A DNA stretch of 64,000 bases from a virus (Duplodnaviria; Caudoviricetes). The stretch is taken from the IMG/VR virus record IMGVR_UViG_3300010346_002920, positions 3,886-67,885 of that record. One strand, 5' to 3'. The notes beneath the pieces are model-generated. The model had not been told where the DNA came from, ran no database searches, and worked only from the letters and a program-made list of their open reading frames with translations. Numbering within the stretch: the stretch's first letter is position 1; the number at the start of each line of letters is the position of its first letter. The position numbers were made by a program, and so were the translations under genes. This document shows positions 5,341 to 27,696 of this stretch, one piece after another.

Positions 5341-5342
5341 CC

Positions 5343-12551: not shown

Positions 12552-12761
12552 ATGAGCAAGAAGCCTGACAACGTGCTGACCATCGACGAACTGTCGGCTT
12601 ACCTGAAGGTGCCGAAGTCCAGCCTTTACAAGCTGGTGCAGGAAGGCAAGCTGCCCGGCACGAAGGTGGGCCGGCACTGGCGGTTTCGGCGGGAAACGAT
12701 AGACCGATGGCTTGACGCCGGCGGGCAGGTTGAGGCTGACTTGGCCAGCCGGCCGGAGTGA
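12552..12761 (+). CDS. excisionase-like helix-turn-helix protein (HTH_17), paralog of 849-1052
   Basis: VLTIDELSAYLKVPKSSLYKLVQEGKLPGTKVGRHWRF. Confidence 0.9.
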   Translation: MSKKPDNVLTIDELSAYLKVPKSSLYKLVQEGKLPGTKVGRHWRFRRETIDRWLDAGGQVEADLASRPE

Positions 12762-12807
12762 GGCCGGGGCCGCGAACGGATCGAGATGAAGCAAGGAGGC
12801 GGACCAC

Positions 12808-14652: not shown

Positions 14653-16768
14653 CAACTCGGCACTGTCCTCTGCCCGCAGCAAGGCAACCTTGCACGAGGC
14701 CCGCCTGCCCGGCTCCCAGCGCAAGCGGCTCGGGCAATTCTTCACCGGGTTGCCGCTGTCGCGTCTGTTGGCCGCTATCAGCATGACCGCCCCACGCAAG
14801 ACGGTCATCGACCCCATGGCCGGCACCGGCGACCTGCTTGACGCGGCGATTGAGCGGTCGTTTCATCAAGGACTATGCCTGGAGCGCATCGACGCCGTCG
14901 AGGTGGACAAGGACACCGCCACTGCCTGCCGGGAGCGGCTGGCAGCGTGGAAAGACATTTCGCCTGGGGTGGAGCGATCGGTCATTGCAGGCTCCGCCTT
15001 TGATCCGGCCGTCTGGTCGCAACTGGCGATGGGCACCTACGACCTGGCGATCACCAATCCACCGTACGTCCGCTACCAGACCATATCGAGCAACGGTACT
15101 GGAGGGACGGAATCCGGCGCTCCAGAGGACATGCGCCGGAGCTTGGTCGCGGCAGTCGACCGCATGCAGCGGTCTTCAGAAAGGCATGTGTGGCGAGCGC
15201 TGGTTCAGGGGTACTCGGGGCTGTCCGACCTGTCGGTGCCGTCGTGGCTCCTGGCCGCAATGCTGGTGAAGCCCGGTGGCGTTCTGGCTCTCGTCGCACC
15301 GGCGACCTGGCGAACTCGGGACTACGCCGACGTGCTGCAGTACATGCTCGCGAGGTTCTTCCGGCTGGAGGCGGTCGTCGCCGACAGGCAGCCGGGGTGG
15401 TTCTCGCAGGCGCTTGTGCGGACGCACCTGGTCGTCGCGAGCAGGATGTCATCCGAGGAAGCCTGCGTGCCCCTTACGGAACGCGGCGAGGCGTTGGAGT
15501 CCTTCCCATGGGTGGAGATCGCGCCTGAGGCAAGGGGCGGCGACAGCCTTGTCGGTTCAGCCTTTCCAATGGATGATCCCGAGGGGGCCTTCGCTCAATG
15601 GCTCCAGTTGGCGGACCAGGATGTTCCAGGCATCAGCCGCGTTGACCGGCGAACGCAGGATGAAGTCACAGCGGTCGTCTCCCGGTGTGGCTCTTCGAGG
15701 TGGTTCTCACGCTTGGAGCCCGTGGCGGCCAATGCGCCCCTGTTTGGTGGCTCCACGACTACCGACGCCTGCGCCGTGCCGCATGCCCTTGCCGATGCAC
15801 TCGGTACAGTGCCAGAATCCCTGACGACGCTGCACGATGTTGGCATCAAGGTCAGCCAGGGCCTGCGAACCGGCTGCAACGACTTCTTCTACGTGGACTT
15901 CATTGAGACCATCGACGCGTGGCGAGCACGGGTTCGGCTGAGCGCGCTGTTCGGTCGCAGGTGCGTCGATGTCCCTGCGGACGCCCTCGTTCCTGTACTG
16001 CGAAGGCAGGCCGAACTCGATGCCTTTACTGATGGACTCCCACTTCAGGGACGGTTGCTGAACCTGTCGGGGTACGTTCTGCCCGAGGACTGCCATGCAG
16101 TGGAGGAATCGAAGCCTATCTACGAGCAGTTGGGGCTGCCCATGCCGTCCGCTATGCCGGAACGGTTGGCCGAGCATGTCCGCTTCGCCTCCCAATCACG
16201 AACGGGTGGTGCAAAGGGAACTCTGATCCCGGAATTGTCAGCGGTGAGAACGAACGCGCGGCCAGCCGTTCAAAGTCAAAGGCCGAAGCCCCCGAGGTTC
16301 TGGTACATGCTGCCGGACCTCGCCCGGCGTCACGTGCCCGACGCCTTTGTGCCCCGGATCAATCAGCGGACTCCAGTGGCCATGGCCAACGGAACTGTTC
16401 CGGTGGTTGTGGACGCGAACTTTTCGACGGCCTGGTCCGTTGGCGGCGAATGGACGCCCTCTGCGATCAGCGCCCTGTTGCGCAGCTCATGGGTTCGGGC
16501 TTGCATGGAGGCCATCGGCACGCCCATGGGCGGCGGTGCCCTCAAGCTTGAGGCCACGCACCTCAAGCGGCTTCCGGTGCCGAGACTCACCGATCAAGAG
16601 ACCGGGCAGTTGGTGTCATTGGGAAGTAGCGCCCCCATCGCAGCGGTTGACCTCATCATCACCAAGGCAGTGCTTGGCGATCGCGCTAGCACAGCCTCCA
16701 TGTCACGCATGAACGAACGCCTGCTCGCCTTCATTGAGGCGGCCGAGCAAGCACGGCAAAGGGGTTAG
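14633..16768 (+). CDS. Eco57I-like gamma-class N6-adenine DNA methyltransferase
   Basis: IDPMAGTGDLL (motif I), NPPYVRYQ (motif IV), and C-terminal TRD-like MGGGALKLEATHLKRLPVP. ATG 14633 overlaps the upstream gene end. Confidence 0.85.
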   Translation: MQSRQCDNSALSSARSKATLHEARLPGSQRKRLGQFFTGLPLSRLLAAISMTAPRKTVIDPMAGTGDLLDAAIERSFHQGLCLERIDAVEVDKDTATACRERLAAWKDISPGVERSVIAGSAFDPAVWSQLAMGTYDLAITNPPYVRYQTISSNGTGGTESGAPEDMRRSLVAAVDRMQRSSERHVWRALVQGYSGLSDLSVPSWLLAAMLVKPGGVLALVAPATWRTRDYADVLQYMLARFFRLEAVVADRQPGWFSQALVRTHLVVASRMSSEEACVPLTERGEALESFPWVEIAPEARGGDSLVGSAFPMDDPEGAFAQWLQLADQDVPGISRVDRRTQDEVTAVVSRCGSSRWFSRLEPVAANAPLFGGSTTTDACAVPHALADALGTVPESLTTLHDVGIKVSQGLRTGCNDFFYVDFIETIDAWRARVRLSALFGRRCVDVPADALVPVLRRQAELDAFTDGLPLQGRLLNLSGYVLPEDCHAVEESKPIYEQLGLPMPSAMPERLAEHVRFASQSRTGGAKGTLIPELSAVRTNARPAVQSQRPKPPRFWYMLPDLARRHVPDAFVPRINQRTPVAMANGTVPVVVDANFSTAWSVGGEWTPSAISALLRSSWVRACMEAIGTPMGGGALKLEATHLKRLPVPRLTDQETGQLVSLGSSAPIAAVDLIITKAVLGDRASTASMSRMNERLLAFIEAAEQARQRG

Positions 16769-16769
16769 T

Positions 16770-19700
16770 ATGCCTGGTCGAATGGAATCAGCCAAACAGA
16801 TGATCTCTCGGTGCCGACGGCTGCGAGACGAAGGACGCCCTGAGGCCGTGCTTCGCAGCGAACTGGCATCTCGCCTACGACAGGTCTTCCCTGGCCCAGA
16901 AGATCAGCTGTGGATTGACCACTACACCGAGGGAGAGGAAGCCGCGACTCGCGTCGGCCGCTCCGGCGGCGGAACATCTCAGGGGTTCATTGACACGCTG
17001 GTACGCTCCACAGTGATCGAGTATGAGCCTGACCTTCGAATCGAGGCGCGGTGGAATGGAGGCTACCAGCAGGTGAAGGAGTACGCCGCTGGTGCTCTTC
17101 GGGCGGGGATGGCCGTGAGCCAGGTTCGCGGGGTGCTCTCGGACACGGTGGACTGGCATGTCTACGACGTCCAACTCGCCGATGGCGTAGCGCCGGCGGA
17201 TTGCACGGACGGAGACGTGACCTTACTGGACGTCGAGTCGTTCCAAGCCGAAGCCGCTGACGACGACACCGCCAGGCGTTTCCTCGCCTTCCTGAAGAAG
17301 CATCTCGCCAGAGAGCAATCCCGCTCGGTCGCCGCCGACTTCATTGCGGGCGACCTTGGGTTGGAGAGCGCCGCGCATGGCAGGCATGTTGCCTCCCTCG
17401 TGCAGCTGGTGGAGGACGGCCGGTCTTCGGATGATTCCATCGCGCTGGCCACGGACCTCTGGTCCCGGTTCGTCGATTATCTGGAGCACGATGAAGGCGA
17501 GTTCCGGGTGTCCGCCTACGTGGACGAGGCCTACGTGGCGATCCTCGCCAGACTGCTTTGCGCCAACATCCTTCAGCAACAGGCTTGCCTGAGTACCGAC
17601 GCAGAGCTTGGTAACATCCTGAGCGGCCAGTACTTCGAGACCGAGTTCCAGCTCCGGAACATGGTGGAGCAGGACTACTTCGGCTGGATGCTGCGACGCG
17701 AGCATCTGCCCCGTCTCATGCCGGTCGCCCGCGAGATGCAGCGAGACCTGTATGCGTATGACTTCTCGGTGATCCGGGAGGAAGACCTGTTCGGCCGGCT
17801 GATGGCGCAGCTTGCCAGAAGAACGCAGCGCAAGCTGCTGGGCCAGGAATGGACGCCGCAGTGGATCGCCCGCGCGTTGGCGGATAAGGCCGTGTCACTG
17901 GTCGGCGATGAGCCACCGTGCTTTGTTGACATGTGCTGCGGTTCGGGATCGATCATGGCGGAAGTGATCAAGGCCGCCAAAGCAGCAAGGTCATCGGCCG
18001 CCCTGGAAGAACTGGCAACGGTCGTGACGGGGTTCGACATCGACCCCCTCGCCGTCATGCTCGCCAAGACCACCTGGGTTGTCACGCTCGCGGCAGACAT
18101 TCGGGCCTCCACTGTGCCGGTGACCGTCCCCGTGTACCACGCCGATTCGCTGTTCGCGGTTACGCCGATCACCGAGCGGATGCCGCTGCCGGGCGAAGCG
18201 GGAGACATCCCTGTTGATCTTGACGGCGAGCGGATTACGTTACCCTCAGTGCTCGTGACGCCAGCCTTCAGGTCCATGTTCGACGACATCGTGGACTGGT
18301 GCTACGACGAGGCGCGAAAGGCCCAGGATGATGGTGATGCGACGGCGATCACCAGAGAACGAGCGAATCAGCTTGTGACCGCCCTGGTGGAACGCGGAGG
18401 CCATGAACTACCGGCTGAGGACAAGACGAAGATCGCGGCATCGGTCCATGAGCTCGCTGCGCGGATGGGTCAGCTTGCGGTAGACAACCGAAACGGGATC
18501 TGGGCGTTCATCCTGCGCAACACATACCGCCCGGGCCTACTGGCTGGCCAGTTCAACGGGCTGGTGTCGAACCCGCCGTGGCTTGCGATGAGCCAGTTCG
18601 CGGACAATCCGTACAAGGAAGCGCTCTCCAGCCGTGCGTCGGCCTACGGCATCAAGCCAGGCGGGGCCGCCCACCTGCACGCCGAATTGGCCACGACCCA
18701 CCTGCTCCATGCCGTGGACCGCTACCTCAAGGACGGGGCAAGCGTAGCGTGCCTGGTCCCTGGAACGGTTCTCAACGGCATGAATCATCAGAAACTGCGC
18801 GATGCAGCGTACCTGGAAGCGGATCGTCCCGTCCCTCTCGAGCTTCAGGAAGTCTGGGGCGTCGCTCCGGGCACCTTCAAGGTTCGGTCTGTGGCGCTGA
18901 TCGGCGTCAAGAGGGCCTCCGAACGGCGCGTTGCCAGATCAGCACCCGCAGGCGCGGTTGCGACGGCCTCGGCAGTTCAGCCCACCCCCCTCACGGTGAG
19001 GAATCTTGGCCGTCGAAGCGCCTGGGTTCTCGGCGGCTCTGCGTCGTCGGCCACATTCGGAACGGACGAAGTGCCTCCCCAAGGCGCGGACCTCATGCCT
19101 CGACCTGCCGTGTGCATCACGGTCGAGGACCGCCGTGGCCTCGAGTGGCGGGTCCGAACGCCAAGGCGGCGCGACTCGGAGTTCTTCGCGGTCAAGGATG
19201 CGAAGAAGCTCCAGACCCAGAGCTTCGGGGGCTGCATCGCCCCTTGCTTCGTTCATCGCATGGTCCAGTCGCTGAACCTGCTGCCGTTCACCTTGGACGG
19301 CAACTTTGTGCAGATTGGCATCCCAGCCCGCCGCGACGACCATGGGCAGTGGGAGATCATGGATGCCGCCGCCATCCGGACCGCTGGTTTTGCTCAGACC
19401 GCGCGGCGGTTCCAGCGCATCGACCGTGCCATGACGGATGCAGACGTGGTGAAGCCCTTGCACGAGAAGATCGACGAGCGGCGAAAACTCAGCTTGCAGG
19501 TGTTCCCGCCGAACCGCTATCTGGTGCTGAACGGGGCCGGCGGAGGCGTTGCCTGTGCGGCCAAGTTGTCGCTGGCGGAACTGCCTGACATCGTGGTCGA
19601 CCAGACCCTCTACTGGACGCTGGTCGCCACTTTGGATGAGGCCTGGTATCGAGTGGGGCTGATCAACACCGATGCTCTCACGCAAGCGATCCGAGAGTTC

Positions 19701-19982
19701 AATCCCGAAGGCGAGCTTGGGCCCCGGCACCTCCACACGCTGCCGAATCGGGTGATTCCGGCGTTCGACCCGTCGAACCTGGACCATATGGAGGTCCGCA
19801 GCCTTGCCGAGCAGCTTGCCGGTTTGGCCGGCCCGCTGATTGCCGCCGATCAGAACATCGCCGACCCAAGCAAACCCATCGCAGCACGTCGACGCCGGTT
19901 GCGGAACAAACTGAAGGAACTGGTCGAGTTCAGTGCGTTGGAAGATGTGGCCAGCGCCGTACTGGGAACGTCCAGCGAATAG
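16770..19982 (+). CDS. type IIG-like fused restriction-modification enzyme (endonuclease-MTase-TRD)
   Basis: N-terminal PD-(D/E)XK-like FIDTLVRSTVIEYE, GQEWTPQWIA, DMCCGSGS, NPPW, and a TRD-like C-terminus. Confidence 0.75.
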   Translation: MPGRMESAKQMISRCRRLRDEGRPEAVLRSELASRLRQVFPGPEDQLWIDHYTEGEEAATRVGRSGGGTSQGFIDTLVRSTVIEYEPDLRIEARWNGGYQQVKEYAAGALRAGMAVSQVRGVLSDTVDWHVYDVQLADGVAPADCTDGDVTLLDVESFQAEAADDDTARRFLAFLKKHLAREQSRSVAADFIAGDLGLESAAHGRHVASLVQLVEDGRSSDDSIALATDLWSRFVDYLEHDEGEFRVSAYVDEAYVAILARLLCANILQQQACLSTDAELGNILSGQYFETEFQLRNMVEQDYFGWMLRREHLPRLMPVAREMQRDLYAYDFSVIREEDLFGRLMAQLARRTQRKLLGQEWTPQWIARALADKAVSLVGDEPPCFVDMCCGSGSIMAEVIKAAKAARSSAALEELATVVTGFDIDPLAVMLAKTTWVVTLAADIRASTVPVTVPVYHADSLFAVTPITERMPLPGEAGDIPVDLDGERITLPSVLVTPAFRSMFDDIVDWCYDEARKAQDDGDATAITRERANQLVTALVERGGHELPAEDKTKIAASVHELAARMGQLAVDNRNGIWAFILRNTYRPGLLAGQFNGLVSNPPWLAMSQFADNPYKEALSSRASAYGIKPGGAAHLHAELATTHLLHAVDRYLKDGASVACLVPGTVLNGMNHQKLRDAAYLEADRPVPLELQEVWGVAPGTFKVRSVALIGVKRASERRVARSAPAGAVATASAVQPTPLTVRNLGRRSAWVLGGSASSATFGTDEVPPQGADLMPRPAVCITVEDRRGLEWRVRTPRRRDSEFFAVKDAKKLQTQSFGGCIAPCFVHRMVQSLNLLPFTLDGNFVQIGIPARRDDHGQWEIMDAAAIRTAGFAQTARRFQRIDRAMTDADVVKPLHEKIDERRKLSLQVFPPNRYLVLNGAGGGVACAAKLSLAELPDIVVDQTLYWTLVATLDEAWYRVGLINTDALTQAIREFNPEGELGPRHLHTLPNRVIPAFDPSNLDHMEVRSLAEQLAGLAGPLIAADQNIADPSKPIAARRRRLRNKLKELVEFSALEDVASAVLGTSSE

Positions 19983-20162
19983 GACATGACACAGCGAAAC
20001 GTGGAAGCAGGGCCTTGACAAGAACCATACAAATACCGAACATTATCGACGAGATCGCTTGGGCCAGCGGAGGCCCAAGCGGGGAACTCTTCATCTGTGA
20101 GCAGGTAGAGACACCACGTCCAACGCTGGCGTGCCAACGGTTACCTGCGGGAGACCGTTGAT

Positions 20163-22055
20163 ATGCCATCCTCTGACTCCACAGAAACTGGGAAGTCTCA
20201 CCAACTGAAGTCCGTCTCGGTCGTGGGCGGGTTCCTCGACGGGCAGCGTTTCGACCTGTCCGACGGGCTGAACTGCGTCATCGGGGCACGGGGCACCGGC
20301 AAGACGACGGTGCTGGAGTTCGTCCGCTACGCGATGGATGCGATGCCGACGGACGGCGCAGCCCGCAAACGGGTCGAGTCCCTGGTGGAGCAGAACCTCG
20401 CCGGCGGGCGGGTCGAGGTCGCGGTTCGCACCAAGGACGGCCTGGCTTACACCGTCAGCCGGTCGGCGGGTGACGATCCCGTGGTGCTGGACGAGATCCG
20501 CAACCCGACCGACATCAGCCTGCGCAGCGGCGGGCTGTTCAAGGTGGACATCTTCAGCCAGAACGAGGTCGAGGCCATCGCCGACCAGGCCAGCTCGCAG
20601 CTCGACCTGATCGACAACTTCGAGGCCGACCGGATCGCCGGCATCGAGCATCGCATCCGCACACTCAAGGCGGACCTGGCCGGCAACGCCAGCAAGATCA
20701 CCCCGCTCCAGCAGAAAGCCGACTCCATCGCCGAGGAGCTGAACGCGCTGCCTGGGCTGAACGAGAAGCTCAAGGCGTTTACGGCAGAGGGTGGTGACGA
20801 CGCGGCTGCCATCAATCAGGCCCACGGCCTCAAGGCCCTCCGGGACCGTGAGCGGCGTGCGGTCGGCGCGACGAACGACCTGCTGGCTGAGCTCTACCGG
20901 GCCATTGACGGCTGCGCCGGGCACATCGGCCAGCGGCTGGCGACCATCTTCACCGAGGACATGCTCAAGGGCCCCAACGGCGCGCTGGTCGAAGAATTGC
21001 GCCTGGGTCTCCAGACTTGCTCTGACGACGTGGATCGCCTGCTCCGTGACGCTCTGGAACGGATTCGGGCCGAAGGCGAGACGGTCGCGGCTAAGGCGGG
21101 CAAGCTCGATCTGGCGCACAAACAGCAGGAGCTCAAGTTCCAGGAACTCCTGGAGAAGCACAAGGAGGCCCAGGGCAAGGCCGCCGAGCGACACCGCCTG
21201 GAGAAGCTCCGCAACGACCTGATGGCCAAGCAGCGCGAACGGGATCAACTGCTGGAGCAGTTGAAGGCCCTGCGGGACGAGCGGGCACGGCTGCTGCGGC
21301 AGCTCTCGGAGCTTCGGGACGAGCGATTCGGCATTCGCCAGGGCATCGTGGACCGGATCAACGCGGCCCTCTCGCCCACGATCAAGGTGTCGATCATTCA
21401 GTTCGGCAATCCCGAGGAATACCGGGCGCTTCTGGAAGAGGCCCTGAAGGACAACCGCCTCCGCCGCAACGTCGTGGCCGCCAAGGTCGTCAACGCCTTC
21501 TGGCCGGCCGAGCTCGCTGAGGTGGTCAAGCAACGGGACGCGCAGGCTCTGATCGACAAGGCCGAGCTGAACGCCGACCAGGCCGACAAGGTCATGGCGG
21601 CGATGGTCGGTTCGCAGGTGCTCTTCGACTTGGAGACCATTGAACTGATCGACCTGCCGAAGATCGAGTTGAACGATAACGGCACGCTCAAGGAGACCAC
21701 ATCGCTTTCGACCGGTCAGAAATGCACCACGATCCTGCCCATCCTGCTGCTGGACAGCGAGAACCCGCTGCTGATCGATCAGCCCGAGGACAACCTGGAC
21801 AACCGGTTCGTGTTTGAGACCATCGTCGAGAGCATCGGCAAGATCAAGCAGCGGCGGCAGTTGATCTTCGTGACGCACAACCCGAACATCCCGGTTCTTG
21901 GAGACGCCGACAAGGTGTTCGTGCTGGACTCCGACGGTACAACGGCCCGGAAGGTGAGCGAGGGCACCGTCGACCACTGCAAGGACCACATCGTAACGCT
22001 GCTCGAAGGCGGCGCGGACGCTTTCAAGCGCAGAAAGGCGCGGTACTCGTACTGA
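20163..22055 (+). CDS. SMC/RecN-like ABC-type ATPase with central coiled coil
   Basis: Walker A NCVIGARGTGKTT, signature LSTGQK, Walker B/D-loop LLIDQPEDNLD, H-loop VTHN. Confidence 0.9.
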   Translation: MPSSDSTETGKSHQLKSVSVVGGFLDGQRFDLSDGLNCVIGARGTGKTTVLEFVRYAMDAMPTDGAARKRVESLVEQNLAGGRVEVAVRTKDGLAYTVSRSAGDDPVVLDEIRNPTDISLRSGGLFKVDIFSQNEVEAIADQASSQLDLIDNFEADRIAGIEHRIRTLKADLAGNASKITPLQQKADSIAEELNALPGLNEKLKAFTAEGGDDAAAINQAHGLKALRDRERRAVGATNDLLAELYRAIDGCAGHIGQRLATIFTEDMLKGPNGALVEELRLGLQTCSDDVDRLLRDALERIRAEGETVAAKAGKLDLAHKQQELKFQELLEKHKEAQGKAAERHRLEKLRNDLMAKQRERDQLLEQLKALRDERARLLRQLSELRDERFGIRQGIVDRINAALSPTIKVSIIQFGNPEEYRALLEEALKDNRLRRNVVAAKVVNAFWPAELAEVVKQRDAQALIDKAELNADQADKVMAAMVGSQVLFDLETIELIDLPKIELNDNGTLKETTSLSTGQKCTTILPILLLDSENPLLIDQPEDNLDNRFVFETIVESIGKIKQRRQLIFVTHNPNIPVLGDADKVFVLDSDGTTARKVSEGTVDHCKDHIVTLLEGGADAFKRRKARYSY

Positions 22056-22056
22056 C

Positions 22057-23217
22057 ATGGCGGACGATTCGGCACAGCCTGATTTGGCGCAGCTGACGGC
22101 CCAACTCCAACAGGACCGCGAAGCTCTGGATTGGCCGCTACGGCGCGACCTGGTCAAGACGGTCGCCGAACAGCTTTCGCAGGTTGGCCCGACGGAGACG
22201 GCGCTGTCGCTGCTACTTGTCCTGGCCGAAGACCCCAAGTGGGAGGTCCGCAAGGACGTGGCGGACTGCCTTGTGCTCGTGCCGGATGATGATTTTCCTC
22301 GCCTGGCAGCCAAGCTGTCCCAAGACTCCAACTTGTTCGTGCTGAAGGCGACGGAGCGGGCGCTGGATCGCCGCCGTCGGGGACAGCAGACGGCCCAGAA
22401 GAAGCGACGCGGCTTGGATCAGGTCGGGGATCAGTACGCCAACATCGAGAAGATGCACGGCACCATCGCCGCCGAGAAGGCACGCCAGATGGCCGAGCGG
22501 CTTTATGACGTGCTCGTCGGGGCGACCGTCCACGACATGCGGAACATCCTGGGGCCGCTGAAGTCGAGCATTTCGGCGCTGCTGGGACACATAGGCGATG
22601 GCGGGATCGATCCCAAGCTGTTTGAGAAGAACCTGACGAAGATGGGGCACCAGGCCGAGATGCTGGAGCGGCTGCTGGAGGACATGCGGGCGTACTCGCA
22701 GCCGACGCCGGCGGATCGCCGGCGCGAACGACTGGTCGACGTGGTCAAGGAGGCCCACGTCATGGTGCTGGACGCGTTCCAGGCGACGGGGCGCGACCCG
22801 AGTCGAGTCCAGGTCAAGATTGACGTCCCGGAGAACCTGACGGCCGAGATGTCGCGGCACCAGATCGTTCGGGCGGTCGGCAACGTGATGAAGAACGCCT
22901 ACGAGGCCTTCGCCAACGATCCGCAGACGTTTGCCGATGGCCAGGTGTTCCTGACGGCCAAGGCGCTGGACGGTGAGCGGGTCGAGGTTGTCGTGGTGGA
23001 CAACGGCATGGGGCTGTCGGGCGAGGAACTCGAAGAGGTCAGGCGGTTCGTGCCGGGAGGCACGTCGAAGAAGACGCACGGGACGGGCTTCGGCCTGCCG
23101 ATCGCCAAGCGGAAGATCGAGGACCACGGCGGCTCCTTGGCCATCGACAGCGAGGAGGACAAAGGAACCACGGTCACGATCACGTTGCCGGTGGAGACGG
23201 GGAGGGGCAGTGAATGA
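22057..23217 (+). CDS. cytoplasmic histidine kinase with N-terminal HEAT repeats
   Basis: HEAT-like LAEDPKWEVRKDVADCL, H-box VHDMRN, N-box NVMKNAYEA, DNGMG, GTGFGL. No TM segment. Confidence 0.88.
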   Translation: MADDSAQPDLAQLTAQLQQDREALDWPLRRDLVKTVAEQLSQVGPTETALSLLLVLAEDPKWEVRKDVADCLVLVPDDDFPRLAAKLSQDSNLFVLKATERALDRRRRGQQTAQKKRRGLDQVGDQYANIEKMHGTIAAEKARQMAERLYDVLVGATVHDMRNILGPLKSSISALLGHIGDGGIDPKLFEKNLTKMGHQAEMLERLLEDMRAYSQPTPADRRRERLVDVVKEAHVMVLDAFQATGRDPSRVQVKIDVPENLTAEMSRHQIVRAVGNVMKNAYEAFANDPQTFADGQVFLTAKALDGERVEVVVVDNGMGLSGEELEEVRRFVPGGTSKKTHGTGFGLPIAKRKIEDHGGSLAIDSEEDKGTTVTITLPVETGRGSE

Positions 23218-24341
23218 AGTACCACGCGCTCGTCATCGACGATAGTTCAGATGTGCTCGACGACGTGAAGGACCGTCTGGAATCCCTCGGCCATTCGTGC
23301 GACTGCGTGACCTGCCTCCAGTGCGCCCGCGACCATCTGGCCAAGAACAGCTACTCGTACATCCTGCTTGACCTGGAGATTCCGGTCCGGTACGGCCGGC
23401 CGTCGCGCATCGCCAACGGCCAGAACCTGCTGCGGGAGATTCGCGCCACGAAGGGCTACGAGCACATCCCGATCATCGTGATGACCTCGCACGGCCACGA
23501 CAGCCCGGACCTGGCCATCGAGGTGCTGCGCGGTAACGGGGCCATCGACTATGTGAAAAAGCCCTTTCCGGACAAGGGCCACACGCTCGAGAAGGCGGTG
23601 CAGGACGCCTTGGACGCCAGCGGCCGCTCGCGTCCGGGGGCCAACCACCTGTCGAAGGCGTCCAAGACGCAGCCTGTCCAGGCGTTTGAGTGCGGGGAGA
23701 TGGTCTTCTCCGATGATCGTGTCGAGCTGTGCGAGGTGAAGATCTGCGGCGGGTCGGAGTGCGGGATGATCCGCCGCATTCTGGACGAGCTGCGTCCGGT
23801 GAACTCCCGCGGGACCTTCGTGGCCTACAGCGGCACGGAGCTGGCCAAGCGGGTGAAGTGCCCGGCAGGCCAGAACGGTGTGGCCGGCGCTGTCCGCGAG
23901 TTCCGCAAGAAGACAGTCGAGCTGCTGCTCGATGAGGCGCGCATCCAGTGCGGTCCGCGCGACATCATCCAGAGCGGCGGACGGGGCTACCGCTTCACCG
24001 AGAAGATCAGCGTTCGGGACGCCAATGATGATCCCGTAAACGGCAATGGTGATCCCGTAAATGATCCCGAAGGCCCGGCAGATGATCCTGTAAACGGGCG
24101 ACATGATCCCGTAACCGGCGCTGTCACAGACGATGGTCTCAGCGACCGCCAGCTTTGGGCGCTCAGCCAGATGCGTGCGGGCAAGCCGGTTCGCGTCGGC
24201 GACATCGCTGACCAGCACAAGTGCTCCAAAGTGACGGCCAAGCGGGACCTCACCGACCTCCGCCAGCGCGGGCTCATCGAATTCACCGGCCCGCCCAAGA
24301 CCGGCCACTGGCGGGCGTTGCGCGGGAGGGATGGGCAGTGA
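23214..24341 (+). CDS. response regulator: REC, winged helix, DPVN repeats, DeoR-like HTH
   Basis: LVIDD, LLDLEIP, MTSH, YVKKPF; SGGRGYRF; KVTAKRDLTDLRQRGLIEFTG. ATGA overlap with the kinase gene. Confidence 0.88.
   Translation: MKYHALVIDDSSDVLDDVKDRLESLGHSCDCVTCLQCARDHLAKNSYSYILLDLEIPVRYGRPSRIANGQNLLREIRATKGYEHIPIIVMTSHGHDSPDLAIEVLRGNGAIDYVKKPFPDKGHTLEKAVQDALDASGRSRPGANHLSKASKTQPVQAFECGEMVFSDDRVELCEVKICGGSECGMIRRILDELRPVNSRGTFVAYSGTELAKRVKCPAGQNGVAGAVREFRKKTVELLLDEARIQCGPRDIIQSGGRGYRFTEKISVRDANDDPVNGNGDPVNDPEGPADDPVNGRHDPVTGAVTDDGLSDRQLWALSQMRAGKPVRVGDIADQHKCSKVTAKRDLTDLRQRGLIEFTGPPKTGHWRALRGRDGQ
24027..24118 (+). repeat. short coding tandem repeats (GATCCCGTAAA-like; DPVN)
   Basis: About five imperfect copies inside the response regulator linker. 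Confidence 0.8.
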
Positions 24342-25120
24342 AGTTCACCCACTACGACCTTGGGCACCTTTCCGGCGGGGAAACCGTCGAGATCGAGCTT
24401 TCCGGCAATGCAGCCAACGTCCGCCTCATGGACAGCTCCGACTTCCAGAACTATCGCTCCGGCAGACGCCATCACTACTACGGCGGACTCGCGCAGCGCT
24501 CACCTGTCAGGCTTCACGTCCCGCACTCCGGCCATTGGCATGTGACCGTTGATCTGGTGGGCCTGCGCGGCTCTGTGCGATCCGGCATCCGGATCGTGCC
24601 GGGGCCTCTGCCGGCGATCCGTGAAGCGCCACTTTCATCCATCCCTTCACTCGTGCAGGGTGCAGGAGGTCACCCGGGGCTTGCCCCCGAAGATGACGAC
24701 CAGCGAGAGTTCGATGTCTTCATCTCGCACGCTTCCGAGGACAAGGATGACGTCGTAAGGCCCCTGGCTGTTGCGTTGCAGGGAAGTGGCTTGGCGGTCT
24801 GGTACGACGAGTTTGAGCTCCGGATTGGCGACAGCCTTAGGCGGAAGATTGACAAGGGGTTGGCGAAGAGTCGGTTCGGCGTGGTCGTGCTCTCTCAGGC
24901 CTTCCTTGGAAAAGGCTGGCCGAACTACGAACTGGATGGGCTGGTCACCAGAGCAGTGACCGGCGAACAGATACTGCTTCCTGTTTGGCACAAGATATCG
25001 AAGCAAGAGGTGATGGCCTACAGCCCATCGCTCGCCGACAAACTTGCCCGGAGTACGTCAACACACACCGTCCAAGAGATCGCCGAGGAAATCGTCCAAG
25101 TAATCAAGGGGCAACCATGA
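24338..25120 (+). CDS. DUF1883-TIR domain protein
   Basis: N-terminal FTHYDLG...NAANVRLMDSSDFQNY (DUF1883-like). TIR_2 FDVFISHASEDKD...VWYDEF...WPNYELDGL with the catalytic-position Glu. GTGA overlap with the RR gene. Confidence 0.88.
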   Translation: MKFTHYDLGHLSGGETVEIELSGNAANVRLMDSSDFQNYRSGRRHHYYGGLAQRSPVRLHVPHSGHWHVTVDLVGLRGSVRSGIRIVPGPLPAIREAPLSSIPSLVQGAGGHPGLAPEDDDQREFDVFISHASEDKDDVVRPLAVALQGSGLAVWYDEFELRIGDSLRRKIDKGLAKSRFGVVVLSQAFLGKGWPNYELDGLVTRAVTGEQILLPVWHKISKQEVMAYSPSLADKLARSTSTHTVQEIAEEIVQVIKGQP

Positions 25121-25443
25121 GCGAAGAAGATGCCATTGTCGAGTTCGTGGGCGGACCCTACGACGGCCATGTCGCCGACACGCGTGATCAGGACCACATG
25201 TCCGCGACCCTTGCCCAGTTCATCTGCCTTGCGACCGATCATGGCAAGCAGGCCGGAAAGGTCGTGCAGGGATACTCGCCGGCGGGTATGGACGCCATCG
25301 CCAACGAAACATTCCGGGGAGAAGCGAATGAGCGGGGCTTCCGCTTCAACCACAAGTACCGGGTCGCCGGGCGTTCATTTGCTGAAGGCAGGCTGAGAAT
25401 CAGAATGGAACACGCTGGTGATGACAGCGGCGAAGGGCTTTGA
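25117..25443 (+). CDS. hypothetical protein
   Basis: ATGA overlap with the TIR gene; 108 aa beginning VEFVGGPYDG. Confidence 0.6.
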   Translation: MSEEDAIVEFVGGPYDGHVADTRDQDHMSATLAQFICLATDHGKQAGKVVQGYSPAGMDAIANETFRGEANERGFRFNHKYRVAGRSFAEGRLRIRMEHAGDDSGEGL

Positions 25444-25572
25444 GCCGAGGCGTTCATGCCAGTCAGGCTGATTGGCGCAGGATGTTGCCAGCCCGCAGGA
25501 CATACGGGTCTGGCGGCTGGAGAAACACCTGAACGTACGGCCCAATCGTCTCGGACGGTTCAAGGTTCCGCC

Positions 25573-25586
25573 AGTCGCCCCGACTT
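25573..25586 (+). repeat. tRNA 3'-end core repeat AGTCGCCCCGACTT (candidate att of the left element)
   Basis: Identical 14-mer at 25921-25934. Confidence 0.7.
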
Positions 25587-25590
25587 CAAG

Positions 25591-25614
25591 AGCCCCGCGA
25601 AAGCGGGGCTTTTT
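25591..25614 (+). terminator. intrinsic terminator
   Basis: AGCCCCGC-GAAA-GCGGGGCT followed by TTTT. Confidence 0.9.
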
Positions 25615-25616
25615 CG

Positions 25617-25886
25617 TTGCTGGAGACGGTCGTGTTTCACGTGTACATTCTTCGGAGCCTTCGAAACGGGAAGTTGTACGTGGGGCATACGGACGACGTT
25701 CGGCGACGCCTCGCGGAGCACAACTCCGGCCGGGGCGGCCGGTTCACCCGCCAGCAAGGCCCGTGGGAACTGCTTCACAGCGAGCCGCATCCGGACCGGT
25801 CGTCTGCCGCCCAGCGCGAACAGTACCTCAAGAGTGTCGCTGGCTCCCGAGAGAAGAAAGCCCTGGCGGGCGGGCAGCTTGGCTAG
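25617..25886 (+). CDS. small GIY-YIG nuclease
   Basis: FHVYILRSLRNGKLYVGHTDDVRRRLAEHN...AAQREQYLK. The start could be GTG 25632. Confidence 0.9.
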   Translation: MLETVVFHVYILRSLRNGKLYVGHTDDVRRRLAEHNSGRGGRFTRQQGPWELLHSEPHPDRSSAAQREQYLKSVAGSREKKALAGGQLG

Positions 25887-25931
25887 AGCGTCCCGACGGG
25901 AAGGTCGCTAGTTCAAATCTAGTCGCCCCGA
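25867..25931 (+). pseudogene. degenerate tRNA-Pro-like gene lacking its anticodon loop
   Basis: D-loop AGCTTGGCTAGAGCG; anticodon stem TCCCG/CGGGA separated by a single A; AGGTC; T-arm GCTAG-TTCAAAT-CTAGT; acceptor 3' strand CGCCCCG-A. Pro identity is inferred from the acceptor stem only. Confidence 0.75.
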
Positions 25932-27421
25932 CTTTGGTCGGAAAACGGCCCTTCGACGAGAACGTCGAAGGGCCTTTTCTTTGTGGTTACAAGACTTACG
26001 TCGCTTAATGACCGTTTCAATAAAACACGCCCGAGGATTGCCCGCCGGGCGTCTTTCCCAGAAACCCCCCAATTCTGGCCCGCGTTTTGCGCGAAATCAA
26101 AGAGCGCCAGGACGTTCTGGCCAACCTCCTCCCCGCATGTCCCTGCCCCGTCCAACTGCTCCCGCAGCCGCTCGGCCTCAACTTTCATCTCGGTTGTCTT
26201 GGCGGTGAACGGTTCTTTTTCGATCGCGCCGCTCAGGTAGGCGTCCATCAATCGCGTCTGCATCTGGTCCAGTTCGGTCAGGCGTTTGCGGGTCTGGCGG
26301 ATGCGCTGCTCCCGCAGAATCGTCTGATCGTTGCAGGCCACGGCCAGGTGGCGGCGGAACCAGTCGCGTCGTTCGTCGTCGGGGATGCGGAGGCTGGTCA
26401 GGTCCCGCTTGATGGCCTCTTCGAGCTGATCCTGCCGCCAACGGACCACAGGGTGGTCCGGGGCGGGGTCCAGATTCCCGCAGCGGTAGTAGACGTACTC
26501 GTGGACCTTGCCGCTCTTCATCTTGCGGACGATGCGCTCGCCGGTGATTCCGTAGCCGCAGTGGGCGCAGACGAACATGCCTCCGGCCAGGTAGTGGTTG
26601 GCGTCTCGCACGCGGCGGTTCTTGCCGTTGAGCAGGTCCTGGCACCGCTCGAACAGTTCGAGGTCGACGAGGGGTTTGTGCTTGCCGATGTACGTCTGCC
26701 CTCGGAACGTGACCATGCCCACGTAGATGCGGTTGTTCAGGATGTAGGACATCGCGCAGCGGTGGAATCGTGGGCATCCGGGTTGGTAGATGAAGCCTTC
26801 GCGTTGAAGCACGTCGGCCATGGCCTTGAAGGTGTAGAGCCCGGTGGCGTACAGCTCGAAGAGTCGCTGGACGGTCGGTCCGTTGACCGGGTGGATCTGG
26901 ATGGGTTCATCGCGGTCGTCTTTCACGTTCCGGTAGCCGTAGGCCGCCAGGCCCGGCGCCCAGCCTTGGCGAACCTTTTCCTCGATGCCCTTGAGCACCT
27001 CGGTGCGAAGGTTGTCGGAGTAGTACTGGGCGACGGCGGCCATGACGTTGAACGACAGCGCCCCGGCCGCGCCGGGTCCGAACTGGTTTTCCACGAAGGC
27101 GAGCTTTACCCCGCACTGGTCTTCCATTTCCTGGAGCCGCACGGCATCACGCATGTTGCGGCAGGCCCGGTCGAGCTTGTGGGCGAGGATGAAGTCGATC
27201 TTCAGCTTGCGGGCGTTGGCGCGGACCCACTTGAGCATCTCGTTGAACGCCACGCGTTCGGCCCCGCGCTTGGCCGACTCGGCCACCACGAACTCGCGGA
27301 CGATGCCCCAGCCCTCCTTCCGCGCCCGCTCGCGGTTCACGCGGAGTTGGGCGTCGATGGAGTAGCCCTCTCGCTGTTCCCGCGACGAGACGCGTGCCCA
27401 AATCACGCAGTTCTGCATCAT
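25919..27421 (-). CDS. large serine recombinase (integrase)
   Basis: CVIWARVSSREQ with catalytic Ser, recombinase domain, zinc ribbon CAHCG...YYRC, coiled coil. AGGAGA RBS before ATG 27421. Confidence 0.95.
   Translation of the reverse strand: MMQNCVIWARVSSREQREGYSIDAQLRVNRERARKEGWGIVREFVVAESAKRGAERVAFNEMLKWVRANARKLKIDFILAHKLDRACRNMRDAVRLQEMEDQCGVKLAFVENQFGPGAAGALSFNVMAAVAQYYSDNLRTEVLKGIEEKVRQGWAPGLAAYGYRNVKDDRDEPIQIHPVNGPTVQRLFELYATGLYTFKAMADVLQREGFIYQPGCPRFHRCAMSYILNNRIYVGMVTFRGQTYIGKHKPLVDLELFERCQDLLNGKNRRVRDANHYLAGGMFVCAHCGYGITGERIVRKMKSGKVHEYVYYRCGNLDPAPDHPVVRWRQDQLEEAIKRDLTSLRIPDDERRDWFRRHLAVACNDQTILREQRIRQTRKRLTELDQMQTRLMDAYLSGAIEKEPFTAKTTEMKVEAERLREQLDGAGTCGEEVGQNVLALFDFAQNAGQNWGVSGKDARRAILGRVLLKRSLSDVSLVTTKKRPFDVLVEGPFSDQSRGD
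25947..25983 (+). terminator. hairpin/terminator after the tRNA remnant, inside the recombinase CDS
   Basis: GGCCCTTCGACG-AGAA-CGTCGAAGGGCC followed by TTTTCTTT. Confidence 0.75.
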
Positions 27422-27696
27422 GGTCTCCTTCTGGCCTGGACCAGCACGTCGGCGAGGTCCTTGACGTTCATGAGAATCTCGACCGCCTCGCCTTCGGTCA
27501 GTTCTCTGCCGTAGTACGGCGACCACACCCGACGCGTGTCCTCGACCGCCTCGTCCGTGATCCAGGCCGCCCCGGGCGGGCGGCGGGGAATCGCGTCGGT
27601 CGGTGGACACCCTTGCTCCGGTGGCGCCATAAATCCAGTCGAATCTGCGGCTCTGATCATGGATGGTTCTCCCCCTTCCTCAGGCATGTTCGCCAT
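27418..27696 (-). CDS. small hypothetical protein upstream of the recombinase
   Basis: Coupled to the recombinase start; ends DTRRVWSPYYGRELTEGEAVEILMNV. Confidence 0.6.
   Translation of the reverse strand: MANMPEEGGEPSMIRAADSTGFMAPPEQGCPPTDAIPRRPPGAAWITDEAVEDTRRVWSPYYGRELTEGEAVEILMNVKDLADVLVQARRRP

What the first reader, a model, noticed from the sequence alone, without database searches (positions are those of the whole stretch)
20163..25443. Coupled operon of SMC-like ATPase, sensorless HEAT-repeat kinase, double-HTH response regulator, DUF1883-TIR and small ORF next to RM genes
Seen: a 1-nt gap then three (A/G)TGA overlaps link all five genes. The kinase has no TM or small-molecule sensor, only HEAT repeats. 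Established: SMC-like ABC ATPases act as invader sensors in Lamassu, Wadjet, PARIS and Ppl, and bacterial TIR domains are NADases or signal producers in anti-phage systems. Inference: the ATPase senses foreign DNA or protein and signals through the HEAT kinase to a transcriptional response that controls RM and TIR effectors. That would be a defence system with a built-in phosphorelay, which I do not recognise as described.
Basis: partly seen in the sequence, partly recalled or inferred. Interest (0 to 1): 0.8.

Follow-up and report, generated by a model that had tools for sequence, protein, structure and literature searches.

The report
SMC-like ATPase two-component cassette plus TIR
The five genes are real, but they are two units: a widespread, apparently undescribed three-gene signalling cassette (DNA-clamp-like ATPase, soluble kinase, DNA-binding regulator) found in anti-phage islands and phages, and a separately mobile TIR gene with a small ORF lodged at its end.

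Summary
Observation confirmed. All five ORFs, the 1-nt gap and the ATGA/GTGA/ATGA overlaps are present, and none of the five products has a predicted transmembrane segment.

Interpretation partly supported. The conserved unit is only ATPase-kinase-regulator.
- In 80 species genomes from at least 8 phyla (555+ relatives), the HEAT kinase directly follows the ATPase in 67 of 71 loci with enough sequence. The regulator follows in at least 52 of 60.
- In IMG/VR contigs the figures are 31 of 32 and 29 of 30.
- The three proteins co-diverge (r 0.86-0.92).
- Full-length HEAT kinases occur only beside such ATPases in three whole genomes.

The DUF1883-TIR gene and the 108-aa ORF accompany the trio only in one near-identical copy. 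They have lower GC3 than the trio. Elsewhere the TIR gene stands alone inside restriction-modification (RM) loci.

The ATPase is a Ppl/TrlF-clade SMC/Rad50-like head with a coiled coil and lacks their N-terminal domain. The regulator is OmpR-type plus a second winged helix, so the output is transcriptional.

Neighbours vary but are rich in RM, Gabija, BREX-like, pAgo and integrase genes. Here the cassette lies just outside a prophage.

Control of the RM genes is unsupported. A phosphorelay in defence is already known (Detocs). No description of the trio was found in the papers searched. Earlier reports of this scan noted the same trio on other DNA.

The parts
19983..20162 (+). Intergenic gap upstream of the ATPase; probable own promoter region
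   Evidence: 180-nt gap with an AT-richer patch and a TTGACA word. It holds a perfect 10-bp inverted repeat at 20056-20081. The consensus scan found no sigma-70 promoter. Homology with the sister copy L004 starts only at 20198, so the upstream region is not part of the shared cassette.
20163..22055 (+). SMC/Rad50-like ABC ATPase (630 aa), TrlF/Ppl clade without their N-terminal domain; proposed sensor
   Evidence: NCBIfam TrlF 320.6 bits (cut-off 350), aligned to model positions 285-943 of 944. The Ppl C-terminus also matches. Walker A (G41-T48), signature S516-Q519, Walker B (D539-D543) and H572 are conserved, mostly invariant, in 39 sequences. AF2 model pLDDT 87: head plus a roughly 260-aa coiled coil. 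Foldseek top hits are MukB, Smc, Rad50, JetC and LmuB.
22057..23217 (+). Soluble HEAT-repeat HisKA histidine kinase (386 aa)
   Evidence: Pfam HATPase_c 3.4e-20, with HisKA and HEAT_2 weak. H159, N276/N280, D315 and G344/G346 are invariant in 40 sequences, and HEAT-like D-x-x-x-VR motifs are conserved. No TM segment. Full-length matches occur only beside trio ATPases in 3 genomes.
23214..24341 (+). Response regulator: REC + OmpR-type wHTH + repeat-rich linker + second wHTH (375 aa)
   Evidence: REC 1.1e-12. D10, D53, T91 and K116 are invariant. AF2 pLDDT 86. Foldseek top hits are MtrA, RpaA, VanR and KdpE over about 270 columns. Short relatives keep the OmpR-like G-x-Y-x-L hairpin and lack the second wHTH.
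24338..25120 (+). DUF1883-TIR (260 aa), AbTir-clade NADase domain; separately mobile accessory gene
   Evidence: DUF1883 3.1e-35 and TIR_2 2.7e-18. PADLOC PDC-S66 2.1e-70 on the TIR part. AbTir 1.8e-51. The catalytic Glu of the WxxxE motif (E198) is invariant. At least 7992 relatives. It stands alone in RM loci L084-L087. GC3 is 0.71.
25117..25443 (+). Small ORF (108 aa), unknown function; real but rare family
   Evidence: Coding-like codon-position GC (0.66/0.45/0.69). 20 cluster representatives at E<=1e-3 among 1.84 billion, all about 100 aa. No Pfam, PADLOC, NCBIfam or PHROG hit. Found with the trio only in L004.
25591..25615 (+). Hairpin (GCCCCGC-GAAA-GCGGGGC) plus T-run: likely operon terminator
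   Evidence: Read. The same hairpin is what the weak Rfam matches align to. The consensus scan did not list it.
25617..25886 (+). Small GIY-YIG domain gene (89 aa), between two copies of a 14-bp repeat
   Evidence: Pfam GIY-YIG 1e-19. Direct repeat AGTCGCCCCGACTT at 25573-25586 and 25921-25934.
25859..25934 (+). Degenerate tRNA-Pro-like sequence: left attachment site of the prophage
   Evidence: Aligns to the intact tRNA-Pro genes that overlap the recombinase 3' end in the related phages L164 and L201, with deletions in the D and anticodon arms. ARAGORN does not call it. Homology to L164 starts at 25902.
25919..27610 (-). Large serine recombinase (prophage integrase), convergent with the operon
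   Evidence: Resolvase, Recombinase and Zn_ribbon_recom. To its right lie phage primase, terminase, portal, head and tail genes. A strong hairpin terminator at 25947-25974 is conserved in L164 and L201.
12808..19982 (+). Three methyltransferase-like genes (PglXI-like, Eco57I-like, type IIG-like): neighbouring RM module, context only
   Evidence: PADLOC PglXI 7.6e-131 and REase_MTase_IIG 7.3e-39. Pfam N6_N4_Mtase and N6_Mtase. Not conserved beside the trio in relatives.

Best explanation
The region is a composite of two units.

(1) Core: a self-contained, horizontally mobile three-gene signalling cassette. It encodes a soluble SMC/Rad50-like ABC ATPase, a soluble HEAT-repeat histidine kinase and an OmpR-type response regulator.

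Proposed working (inferred): the ATPase dimer engages a nucleic-acid or invader-derived cue. Its ATP-dependent head state is read by the kinase's HEAT domain. This changes autophosphorylation at His159 and transfer to Asp53 of the regulator. The regulator then binds DNA and changes transcription of its own operon and of whatever is nested downstream.

The cassette behaves as accessory cargo of defence islands and temperate phages, so its most likely role is in conflict between hosts and mobile elements. It would act as an infection- or DNA-state sensor with a transcriptional output.

(2) Accessory: a DUF1883-TIR NADase gene of the AbTir clade, plus a 108-aa ORF. This is an independent single-gene defence candidate that habitually nests inside other operons. 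Here it is lodged at the regulator's stop codon, and so is co-transcribed with the cassette and possibly controlled by it.

Shown: gene linkage, domain content, catalytic residues, distribution and context. Inferred: the ATPase-kinase contact, the cue, and the target genes.
For: Linkage:
- The kinase is adjacent in 67/71 genome loci and the regulator in at least 52/60. In viral loci the figures are 31/32 and 29/30 (four overlap cases were added by hand).
- 5 of 5 full-length HEAT kinases in three genomes sit beside trio ATPases.
- Pairwise identities of the three proteins co-vary, r 0.86-0.92, with 0 of 999 permutations reaching the observed value.
- One in-frame ATPase-kinase fusion exists (L023).

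Competent parts:
- The Walker A/B, signature and H-loop motifs are conserved in the ATPase.
- H159 and the N/G boxes are invariant in the kinase.
- D10, D53, T91 and K116 are invariant in the regulator.

Output is DNA binding: OmpR-type fold, kept in the short relatives.

Sensor kinship: TrlF/Ppl clade; SMC, Rad50, JetC and LmuB fold.

Alternative signalling partners in divergent sister ATPases:
- a PP2C/RsbU-like phosphatase in L083;
- an ankyrin-repeat protein in L074.

Conflict context:
- Type III Res, AAA_13, BrxL, an OLD-like ATPase and TPR-PIN lie directly upstream in other loci.
- Type I HsdM/S, GajB and SspC-like genes are also found upstream.
- Tallies add pAgo, type I/III RM, WYL and integrases.
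- There are 3 copies in one genome.

Accessory in phages: 0 of the 35 closest relatives of the phage family with more than 5 kb upstream carry it.

The TIR gene is separate.
Against: - There is no effector in the conserved core, so it cannot by itself kill a phage or a cell.
- No conserved operator or regulon was found.
- The defence association rests on neighbour tallies made on crude ORF calls, without a formal background control.
- In 21 of the 41 viral contigs examined (37 of which carry a full ATPase match), the trio lies within about 3 kb of the phage replication module (AAA_24, helicase), in several also near the integrase. That is the position of a lysogeny switch.
- No experiment exists.
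Confidence: 0.55

Rival explanations
1. Mobile-element switch. The trio is the element's own regulatory module. The Rad50-like ATPase senses DNA damage or the element's replication state, and the regulator turns early, excision or lysogeny genes of a prophage or island on or off. It is not an anti-phage function.
For: In 21 of the 41 IMG/VR contigs examined, the trio lies within about 3 kb of the AAA_24-helicase-primase module. Several are divergent from that module, and several also have a serine integrase nearby. The same holds in genome loci L019, L024 and L076. In L018 and L024 the regulator gene ends 6 nt from the integrase gene. A serine recombinase lies within 8 kb in about 12 of 80 genome loci. 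The output is a transcription factor. Two earlier reports of this scan read it this way.
Against: None of the 35 closest relatives of the same phage family with more than 5 kb upstream has the trio, including L164, whose integrase is 77% identical. It is therefore dispensable cargo, not the family's switch. Most genome loci show RM, Gabija or BREX-like neighbours and no phage genes within 8 kb. In this window the trio lies outside the prophage, whose homology to relatives starts at 25902 on a tRNA-Pro-derived site.
Confidence: 0.25
2. All five genes form one integrated defence system in which the phosphorelay switches on the neighbouring RM genes and the TIR effector.
For: The genes are translationally coupled. 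The TIR gene lies downstream in the same transcription unit, ahead of the first terminator. A second, unrelated-N-domain TIR gene sits directly upstream of the trio in L058. RM genes lie co-directionally upstream in the window, L001, L004, L007, L021 and L029.
Against: TIR and the small ORF are absent from 78 of 80 genome loci and from all but one viral locus, where the hit is weak. They differ in GC3. The TIR gene is gene-sized cargo with no conserved flanks. It nests equally tightly in type I RM operons that have no trio. The upstream RM genes of close relatives are of different types.
Confidence: 0.15
3. Housekeeping function: a chromosomal DNA-repair or chromosome-organisation ATPase with its own two-component regulator.
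For: The fold is SMC/Rad50-like. Weak sequence matches to SMC3, Smc and Rad50.
Against: The distribution is patchy across at least 8 phyla, with identities that cut across taxonomy (a Verrucomicrobiae copy at 64%). There are up to 3 copies per genome. Transposases, a group II intron, integrases and phage genes flank it. No Mre11/SbcD, kleisin or ScpB-like partner gene was seen in the loci annotated.
Confidence: 0.05

Closest known systems
Detocs (DtcA TPR-histidine kinase, DtcB receiver, DtcC receiver-PNP effector); own knowledge of Rousset et al. 2023, not read here
   Same: An anti-phage system built on a cytoplasmic, repeat-domain (TPR against HEAT) histidine kinase and a receiver-domain protein. 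Phosphotransfer is used as the immune signal.
   Different: The trio has no receiver-only buffer protein. The regulator's output is DNA binding, not an ATP-cleaving PNP domain. An SMC-like ATPase is an obligatory third partner. No PADLOC model matched the kinase at all.
Ppl (single-gene anti-phage PHP-ATPase) and NCBIfam TrlF / Spaf_1101 family ATPases
   Same: The whole ATPase aligns to their ATPase part. TrlF scores 320.6 bits over model positions 285-943. The Ppl C-terminus scores 1.4e-26 in PADLOC and 1.2e-37 in NCBIfam.
   Different: It lacks their roughly 285-residue N-terminal domain and scores below the TrlF cut-off of 350. A full-length TrlF in Anatilimnocola (596 bits) has no kinase beside it. 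The presumed effector domain is replaced by a kinase-regulator pair.
SMC-like sensors of Lamassu (LmuB) and Wadjet (JetC), Rad50, MukB
   Same: Same fold: an ABC head with an antiparallel coiled coil. Weak LmuB and JetC HMM hits.
   Different: No LmuA/LmuC, JetA/B/D, Mre11 or kleisin partners are present. The coiled coil is short (about 260 residues in all). The partner is a kinase.
OmpR/PhoB-family two-component regulators (MtrA, RpaA, VanR, KdpE)
   Same: REC plus a winged helix with an N-terminal beta-sheet. These are the top structural matches over about 270 columns. The acid pocket, Thr and Lys are conserved.
   Different: Pfam Trans_reg_C does not detect the DNA-binding domain. In the PVC-clade copies a repeat-rich linker and a second MarR/DeoR-like wHTH are appended.
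AbTir / PdTIR / TcpB TIR NADases and the DUF1883-TIR clade (bioRxiv 10.64898/2026.10.06.757174); PADLOC candidate PDC-S66
   Same: The TIR domain matches AbTir at 1.8e-51 with near-gapless alignment, and the catalytic Glu is kept. That preprint lists DUF1883-TIR as a defence-associated clade. PDC-S66 matches the TIR part at 2.1e-70.
   Different: The N-terminal domain is DUF1883, not AbTir's coiled coil and not the PDC-S66 N-domain. No ThsA-like partner lies in the operon.
Defence-island transcription regulators such as BrxR / CapW (WYL-type); own knowledge
   Same: A DNA-binding regulator that recurs next to many different, unrelated defence systems.
   Different: Those are one-component regulators. 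This is a three-protein relay with an ATPase input. No evidence was obtained here that it regulates its neighbours.

Membership tests
Two-component system (HisKA kinase + receiver) | Phospho-accepting His in a DHp helix, plus N, G1 and G2 boxes of the catalytic domain | tested here: met
   H159, N276/N280, D315 and G344/G346 are invariant in 40 sequences. HATPase_c 3.4e-20.
Two-component system (HisKA kinase + receiver) | Receiver domain with acid pocket, phospho-Asp, Thr and Lys | tested here: met
   D10, D53, T91 and K116 are invariant in 28 sequences. Response_reg 1.1e-12.
Two-component system (HisKA kinase + receiver) | Phosphotransfer between this kinase and this regulator | not testable with these tools
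   Only linkage and co-divergence were shown.
OmpR/PhoB response regulators | C-terminal winged helix with N-terminal beta-sheet (Trans_reg_C) | tested here: inconclusive
   The fold matches MtrA, RpaA, VanR and KdpE over REC plus wHTH, with strands 161-179 ahead of the helices. The Pfam Trans_reg_C model gave no hit.
Detocs | Receiver-only buffer protein DtcB and a receiver-effector (PNP) protein DtcC | tested here: not met
   There is one receiver protein per cassette and its output is DNA-binding. The kinase has no PADLOC hit.
Ppl / TrlF PHP-ATPase | N-terminal domain of about 285 residues fused to the ATPase, and a score above the family cut-off | tested here: not met
   The match starts at model position 285. 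The score is 320.6 against a cut-off of 350. No longer fused relatives were found (weak evidence).
Lamassu | LmuB with LmuA effector (and LmuC) | tested here: not met
   Only N-terminal LmuB hits (2e-13) were found, and no other gene of the operon matches a Lamassu model.
Wadjet | JetA, JetB, JetC and JetD | tested here: not met
   JetC scores 1.6e-4 on the coiled coil only. There are no JetA, JetB or JetD hits.
Thoeris | ThsB TIR protein together with a ThsA NADase/SLOG partner | tested here: not met
   ThsB1 model 2.2e-44 on the TIR part. No ThsA-like domain was found among the genes scanned between 12808 and 27610.
DUF1883-TIR (AbTir clade) | N-terminal DUF1883 plus a TIR domain with the catalytic Glu of the WxxxE motif | tested here: met
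   DUF1883 120.4 bits. E198 and W194 are invariant. Aligns to AbTir residues 40-176.
BREX type 3 (for the upstream PglXI-like gene) | PglXI together with BrxA, BrxB, BrxC, BrxF, BrxHII and PglZ | tested here: not met
   PglXI model 7.6e-131, covering only positions 113-704 of 919. No other BREX model hit among the neighbouring genes scanned.

The most novel reading that the evidence does not exclude
SMC/Rad50-like ATPases of the Ppl/TrlF clade are cytoplasmic sensors of invading or damaged DNA. They feed classical bacterial signalling modules: here a two-component phosphorelay, and in sister clades a PP2C partner-switching phosphatase. The cassette would then be an inducible innate-immune alarm that switches on nested or neighbouring defence genes, such as the TIR NADase, on infection. 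That would be a new input class for two-component systems and a transcriptional layer of anti-phage immunity spread across at least 8 phyla and their phages.
Probability: 0.3. Interest if true: 0.85.

Novelty: new variant of a known kind. Interest (0 to 1): 0.66.

Why it matters
Two-component kinases are normally gated by their own sensor domains. A kinase whose only input domain is a HEAT solenoid, and which is always paired with an SMC-like ATPase, would be a new way of feeding DNA-state information into a phosphorelay.

The cassette occurs in more than 550 species genomes and in dozens of phage contigs. No PADLOC model matches its kinase, the ATPase and regulator match PADLOC models only partially, and none of the literature searches found a description.

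It is small (3.4 kb for the trio) and has clear catalytic residues to mutate, so the question is directly testable.

The case also shows that tight translational coupling does not prove that genes form one system. The TIR gene is a hitch-hiker that nests in other operons.

Tried and rejected
- Fused forms longer than 1104 aa: none found (weak evidence).
- Literature searches for TrlF, Detocs with kinase terms, and ABC ATPase with kinase and anti-phage terms found no description of the trio. Krishnan et al. 2020 on ABC ATPases is not held, so a mention there cannot be excluded.
- Conserved operator upstream of the ATPase: the alignment of six upstream regions showed no shared motif, and only short repeats were found.
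- My guess that the 14-bp repeat was a tmRNA end: rejected. It is the acceptor end of a tRNA-Pro-like sequence.
- 'The trio is the core switch of this phage family': rejected by the control on the closest phage relatives.
- ATPase-kinase 'fusions' in L053 and L059 and a kinase-regulator 'fusion' in L051: artefacts of my greedy ORF caller, checked by frame arithmetic coordinates. Only L023 is in frame.
- Contexts of relatives of the small ORF: contigs of about 1 kb, uninformative.
- The Atlas look-up of the small ORF gave only unnamed clusters at 0.90.

Full report
OBSERVATION

The five ORFs are at the stated coordinates. The junctions read directly are TGAcATG at 22053-22059, ATGA at 23214-23217, GTGA at 24338-24341 and ATGA at 25117-25120.

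Domain content:
- The 630-aa protein carries AAA_23, AAA_21 and SMC_N.
- The 386-aa protein carries HATPase_c, with HisKA and HEAT_2 weak.
- The 375-aa protein carries a receiver domain and a C-terminal wHTH.
- The 260-aa protein carries DUF1883 and TIR.
- The 108-aa ORF has no hit.

None of the five products has a hydrophobic 19-mer above a Kyte-Doolittle mean of 1.26, so all five are predicted soluble. Three methyltransferase-like genes end 180 nt upstream.

WHAT IS CONSERVED

The ATPase family is large (657+ clusters).

tblastn of the window's proteins against the 80 kept loci gave these results (four cases where the genes overlap were added by hand):
- The kinase lies directly downstream of the ATPase in 67 of 71 loci with enough sequence.
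- The regulator follows in at least 52 of 60.

In 37 IMG/VR loci the figures are 31 of 32 and 29 of 30.

Further evidence of linkage:
- The three proteins co-diverge. Mantel r is 0.92, 0.86 and 0.90, and no permutation of 999 reached the observed value. Relatedness of the hosts contributes to this.
- In three whole genomes, every full-length match to the HEAT-kinase profile (5 of 5) lies beside a trio-type ATPase. The dozens of other kinases match only the catalytic core.
- Anatilimnocola sp. NA78 holds three copies, plus one full-length TrlF that has no kinase beside it.
- Interruptions confirm that the genes belong together. A group II intron reverse transcriptase splits the kinase in L002, and an insertion separates kinase and regulator in L033.
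- One locus has an in-frame ATPase-kinase fusion (L023).

WHAT IS NOT CONSERVED

The DUF1883-TIR gene and the 108-aa ORF accompany the trio only in L004. L004 shares 20198-25584 with the window at 90.6% identity and has a different upstream flank.

- Their GC3 is 0.69-0.71, against 0.83-0.87 for the trio.
- The TIR family has at least 7992 relatives, at 70-78% identity across phyla.
- In four loci the TIR gene stands alone: between HsdR and HsdS of a type I system, beside other RM genes, or in a phage.
- Homology to those copies starts at the start codon and ends at the stop codon.
- Its TIR domain matches AbTir at 1.8e-51 and keeps the catalytic Glu, E198 of the WxxxE motif.
- A 2026 preprint lists DUF1883-TIR as a defence-associated clade of AbTir relatives.

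It is therefore a separately mobile, operon-nesting single gene.

The small ORF is coding-like and has about 20 distant relatives of the same size. Its function is unknown.

The 151-aa ORF that follows is not coding-like. A GIY-YIG ORF at 25617-25886 is the real gene there.

THE PARTS

ATPase:
- It scores 320.6 bits against NCBIfam TrlF (cut-off 350), aligned to model positions 285-943 of 944. It also matches the C-terminus of the anti-phage protein Ppl. It is therefore the ATPase part of that clade without the N-terminal domain.
- The AF2 model (pLDDT 87) shows an ABC head, an antiparallel coiled coil spanning about residues 143-403, and a helical insert at 418-492.
- The best structural matches are MukB, Smc, Rad50, JetC and LmuB.
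- Sequence matches to solved structures are weak.

Kinase: HEAT-like repeats in the first roughly 140 residues, with an invariant H159 and invariant N and G boxes.

Regulator:
- D10, D53, T91 and K116 are invariant.
- The model (pLDDT 86) matches full-length OmpR/PhoB regulators over receiver plus winged helix.
- A repeat-rich linker and a second wHTH follow.
- Shorter relatives in Myxococcota, Acidobacteriota and Alphaproteobacteria keep the OmpR-like hairpin motif but lack the second wHTH.

The conserved output is DNA binding.

CONTEXT

Neighbours vary from locus to locus, and no fourth gene is conserved. They are rich in conflict genes:
- type III Res, an AAA_13 ATPase, BrxL, an OLD-like ATPase and a TPR-PIN protein directly upstream;
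- type I HsdM/S in the two closest relatives, plus GajB and an SspC-like gene;
- pAgo, type I and III RM, WYL regulators, integrases and phage genes in tallies over 110 nearest neighbours.

These tallies rest on my own crude ORF calls and have no formal background, so I treat the enrichment as qualitative.

In the viral contigs the trio often lies next to the AAA_24-helicase-primase replication module, and in several also near a serine integrase. This suggested a lysogeny switch. As a control I sampled the same phage family by its AAA_24 protein. Of the 80 closest relatives, 35 had more than 5 kb upstream, and none carried the trio. That includes L164, whose integrase is 77% identical to the window's. 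The trio is accessory cargo in these phages.

In this window the prophage starts at about 25902:
- Homology to L164 begins there.
- It lies on a degenerate tRNA-Pro-like sequence. L164 and L201 have an intact tRNA-Pro overlapping the integrase's 3' end.
- L164 has housekeeping genes to the left of that point.

The cassette therefore lies outside the prophage, at the end of an island that also holds a double-GTPase-like gene, an RHS protein and the RM genes.

MECHANISM

Shown: the linkage, intact catalytic motifs in all three proteins, a DNA-binding output, and an SMC/Rad50-like sensor-type ATPase related to a validated defence protein.

Inferred:
- The ATPase is the input.
- The HEAT domain reads the ATPase's state.
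- The regulator controls its own operon and the genes nested in it.

Two things support the reading of the ATPase as input:
- The kinase has no other input domain.
- Divergent sister ATPases that lack the kinase are followed by other signalling or solenoid proteins: a PP2C/RsbU-like phosphatase in L083 and an ankyrin-repeat protein in L074.

The TIR gene lies before the first terminator (25591-25615), so it is probably co-transcribed. Whether the regulator controls it is open.

Control of the upstream RM genes has no support. A 180-nt gap separates them from the ATPase. The RM genes of close relatives are of other types. No shared operator was found.

COMPARISON AND NOVELTY

- It is not Detocs: there is no buffer receiver, no PNP effector, and an additional ATPase.
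- It is not Ppl/TrlF: it lacks the N-terminal domain and scores below the cut-off.
- It is not Lamassu, Wadjet or Thoeris: the partner genes are absent.

It works like a two-component system with a new kind of input, and like the SMC-type invader sensors with a new kind of output. The searches of the held literature found no description. The one paper most likely to mention it is not held.

Earlier reports of this scan described the same trio on other DNA, and were split between a prophage-switch reading and a defence-signalling reading. My phage-family control and the position outside the prophage favour accessory, conflict-related signalling. The switch reading is not excluded.

VERDICT

- Observation confirmed; interpretation partly supported.
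- The interesting object is the three-gene cassette. The TIR gene is a known kind of hitch-hiker.
- Confidence in the composite, conflict-signalling explanation: 0.55.
- Interest: 0.66.

Noticed in passing
window 25859-25990; L164:6097-6172; L201:456-533: The prophage's left end is a degenerate tRNA-Pro, with 6-nt deletions in the D arm and the anticodon arm. Related phages have an intact tRNA-Pro overlapping the 3' end of their large serine recombinase gene, followed by the same conserved hairpin terminator. Site-specific integration into a tRNA gene is unusual for a serine integrase.
   Followed up: partly
window 25573-25586 and 25921-25934: A perfect 14-bp direct repeat, AGTCGCCCCGACTT (the tRNA-Pro acceptor end), brackets a terminator hairpin and an 89-aa GIY-YIG gene (25617-25886). 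This looks like the scar of an earlier small insertion at the same attachment site.
   Followed up: partly
window 24027-24114: The regulator's inter-domain linker is encoded by imperfect tandem repeats (GATGATCCCGTAAACGG...) that give D-P-V-N repeats. The linker varies greatly in length among relatives.
   Followed up: no
window 12808-19982: Three overlapping or abutting methyltransferase-like genes. The first matches the BREX type 3 PglXI model (7.6e-131, partial coverage) with no other BREX gene nearby. An overlapping 243-aa ORF in another frame (12758-13489) hints at a frameshift or a wrong start.
   Followed up: no
window 1461-11972: A protein with weak Double-GTPase matches (784 aa), a 513-aa ORF with no hit, and a 2226-aa RHS-repeat protein lie upstream of the RM genes. 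L024 also has a 2348-aa RHS protein directly upstream of its trio.
   Followed up: no
L002:9805-13031: A group II intron-type reverse transcriptase gene is inserted in the kinase gene of a trio whose ATPase is 78% identical to the window's. The last 69 codons of the kinase are left as a separate ORF.
   Followed up: no
L023:3461-6496: The ATPase and kinase are read as one 1011-aa frame because the ATPase stop codon is missing. This is either a natural fusion or an assembly error.
   Followed up: partly
L083:9772-10992 and L074:9973-11466: Divergent sister ATPases (31-34% identity) lack the kinase. They are followed instead by a PP2C/RsbU/SpoIIE-like phosphatase (L083) or a 497-aa ankyrin-repeat protein (L074).
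   Followed up: partly
L058:6773-7852: A 359-aa protein lies directly upstream of an acidobacterial trio. Its TIR domain is 48% identical to the window's and its N-terminal domain is unrelated. This is a second, independent TIR-trio adjacency.
   Followed up: partly
L006:7323-7817; L048:7299-7757; L050:7357-7815: A 150-165-aa ORF (DUF7713 in L006) sits between a divergent serine recombinase gene and the ATPase in several loci.
   Followed up: no
G002 (Anatilimnocola sp. NA78) 2276174, 3024159, 5186686: Three trio copies in one genome have nearly equal scores, which suggests recent multiplication of the element that carries them.
   Followed up: no
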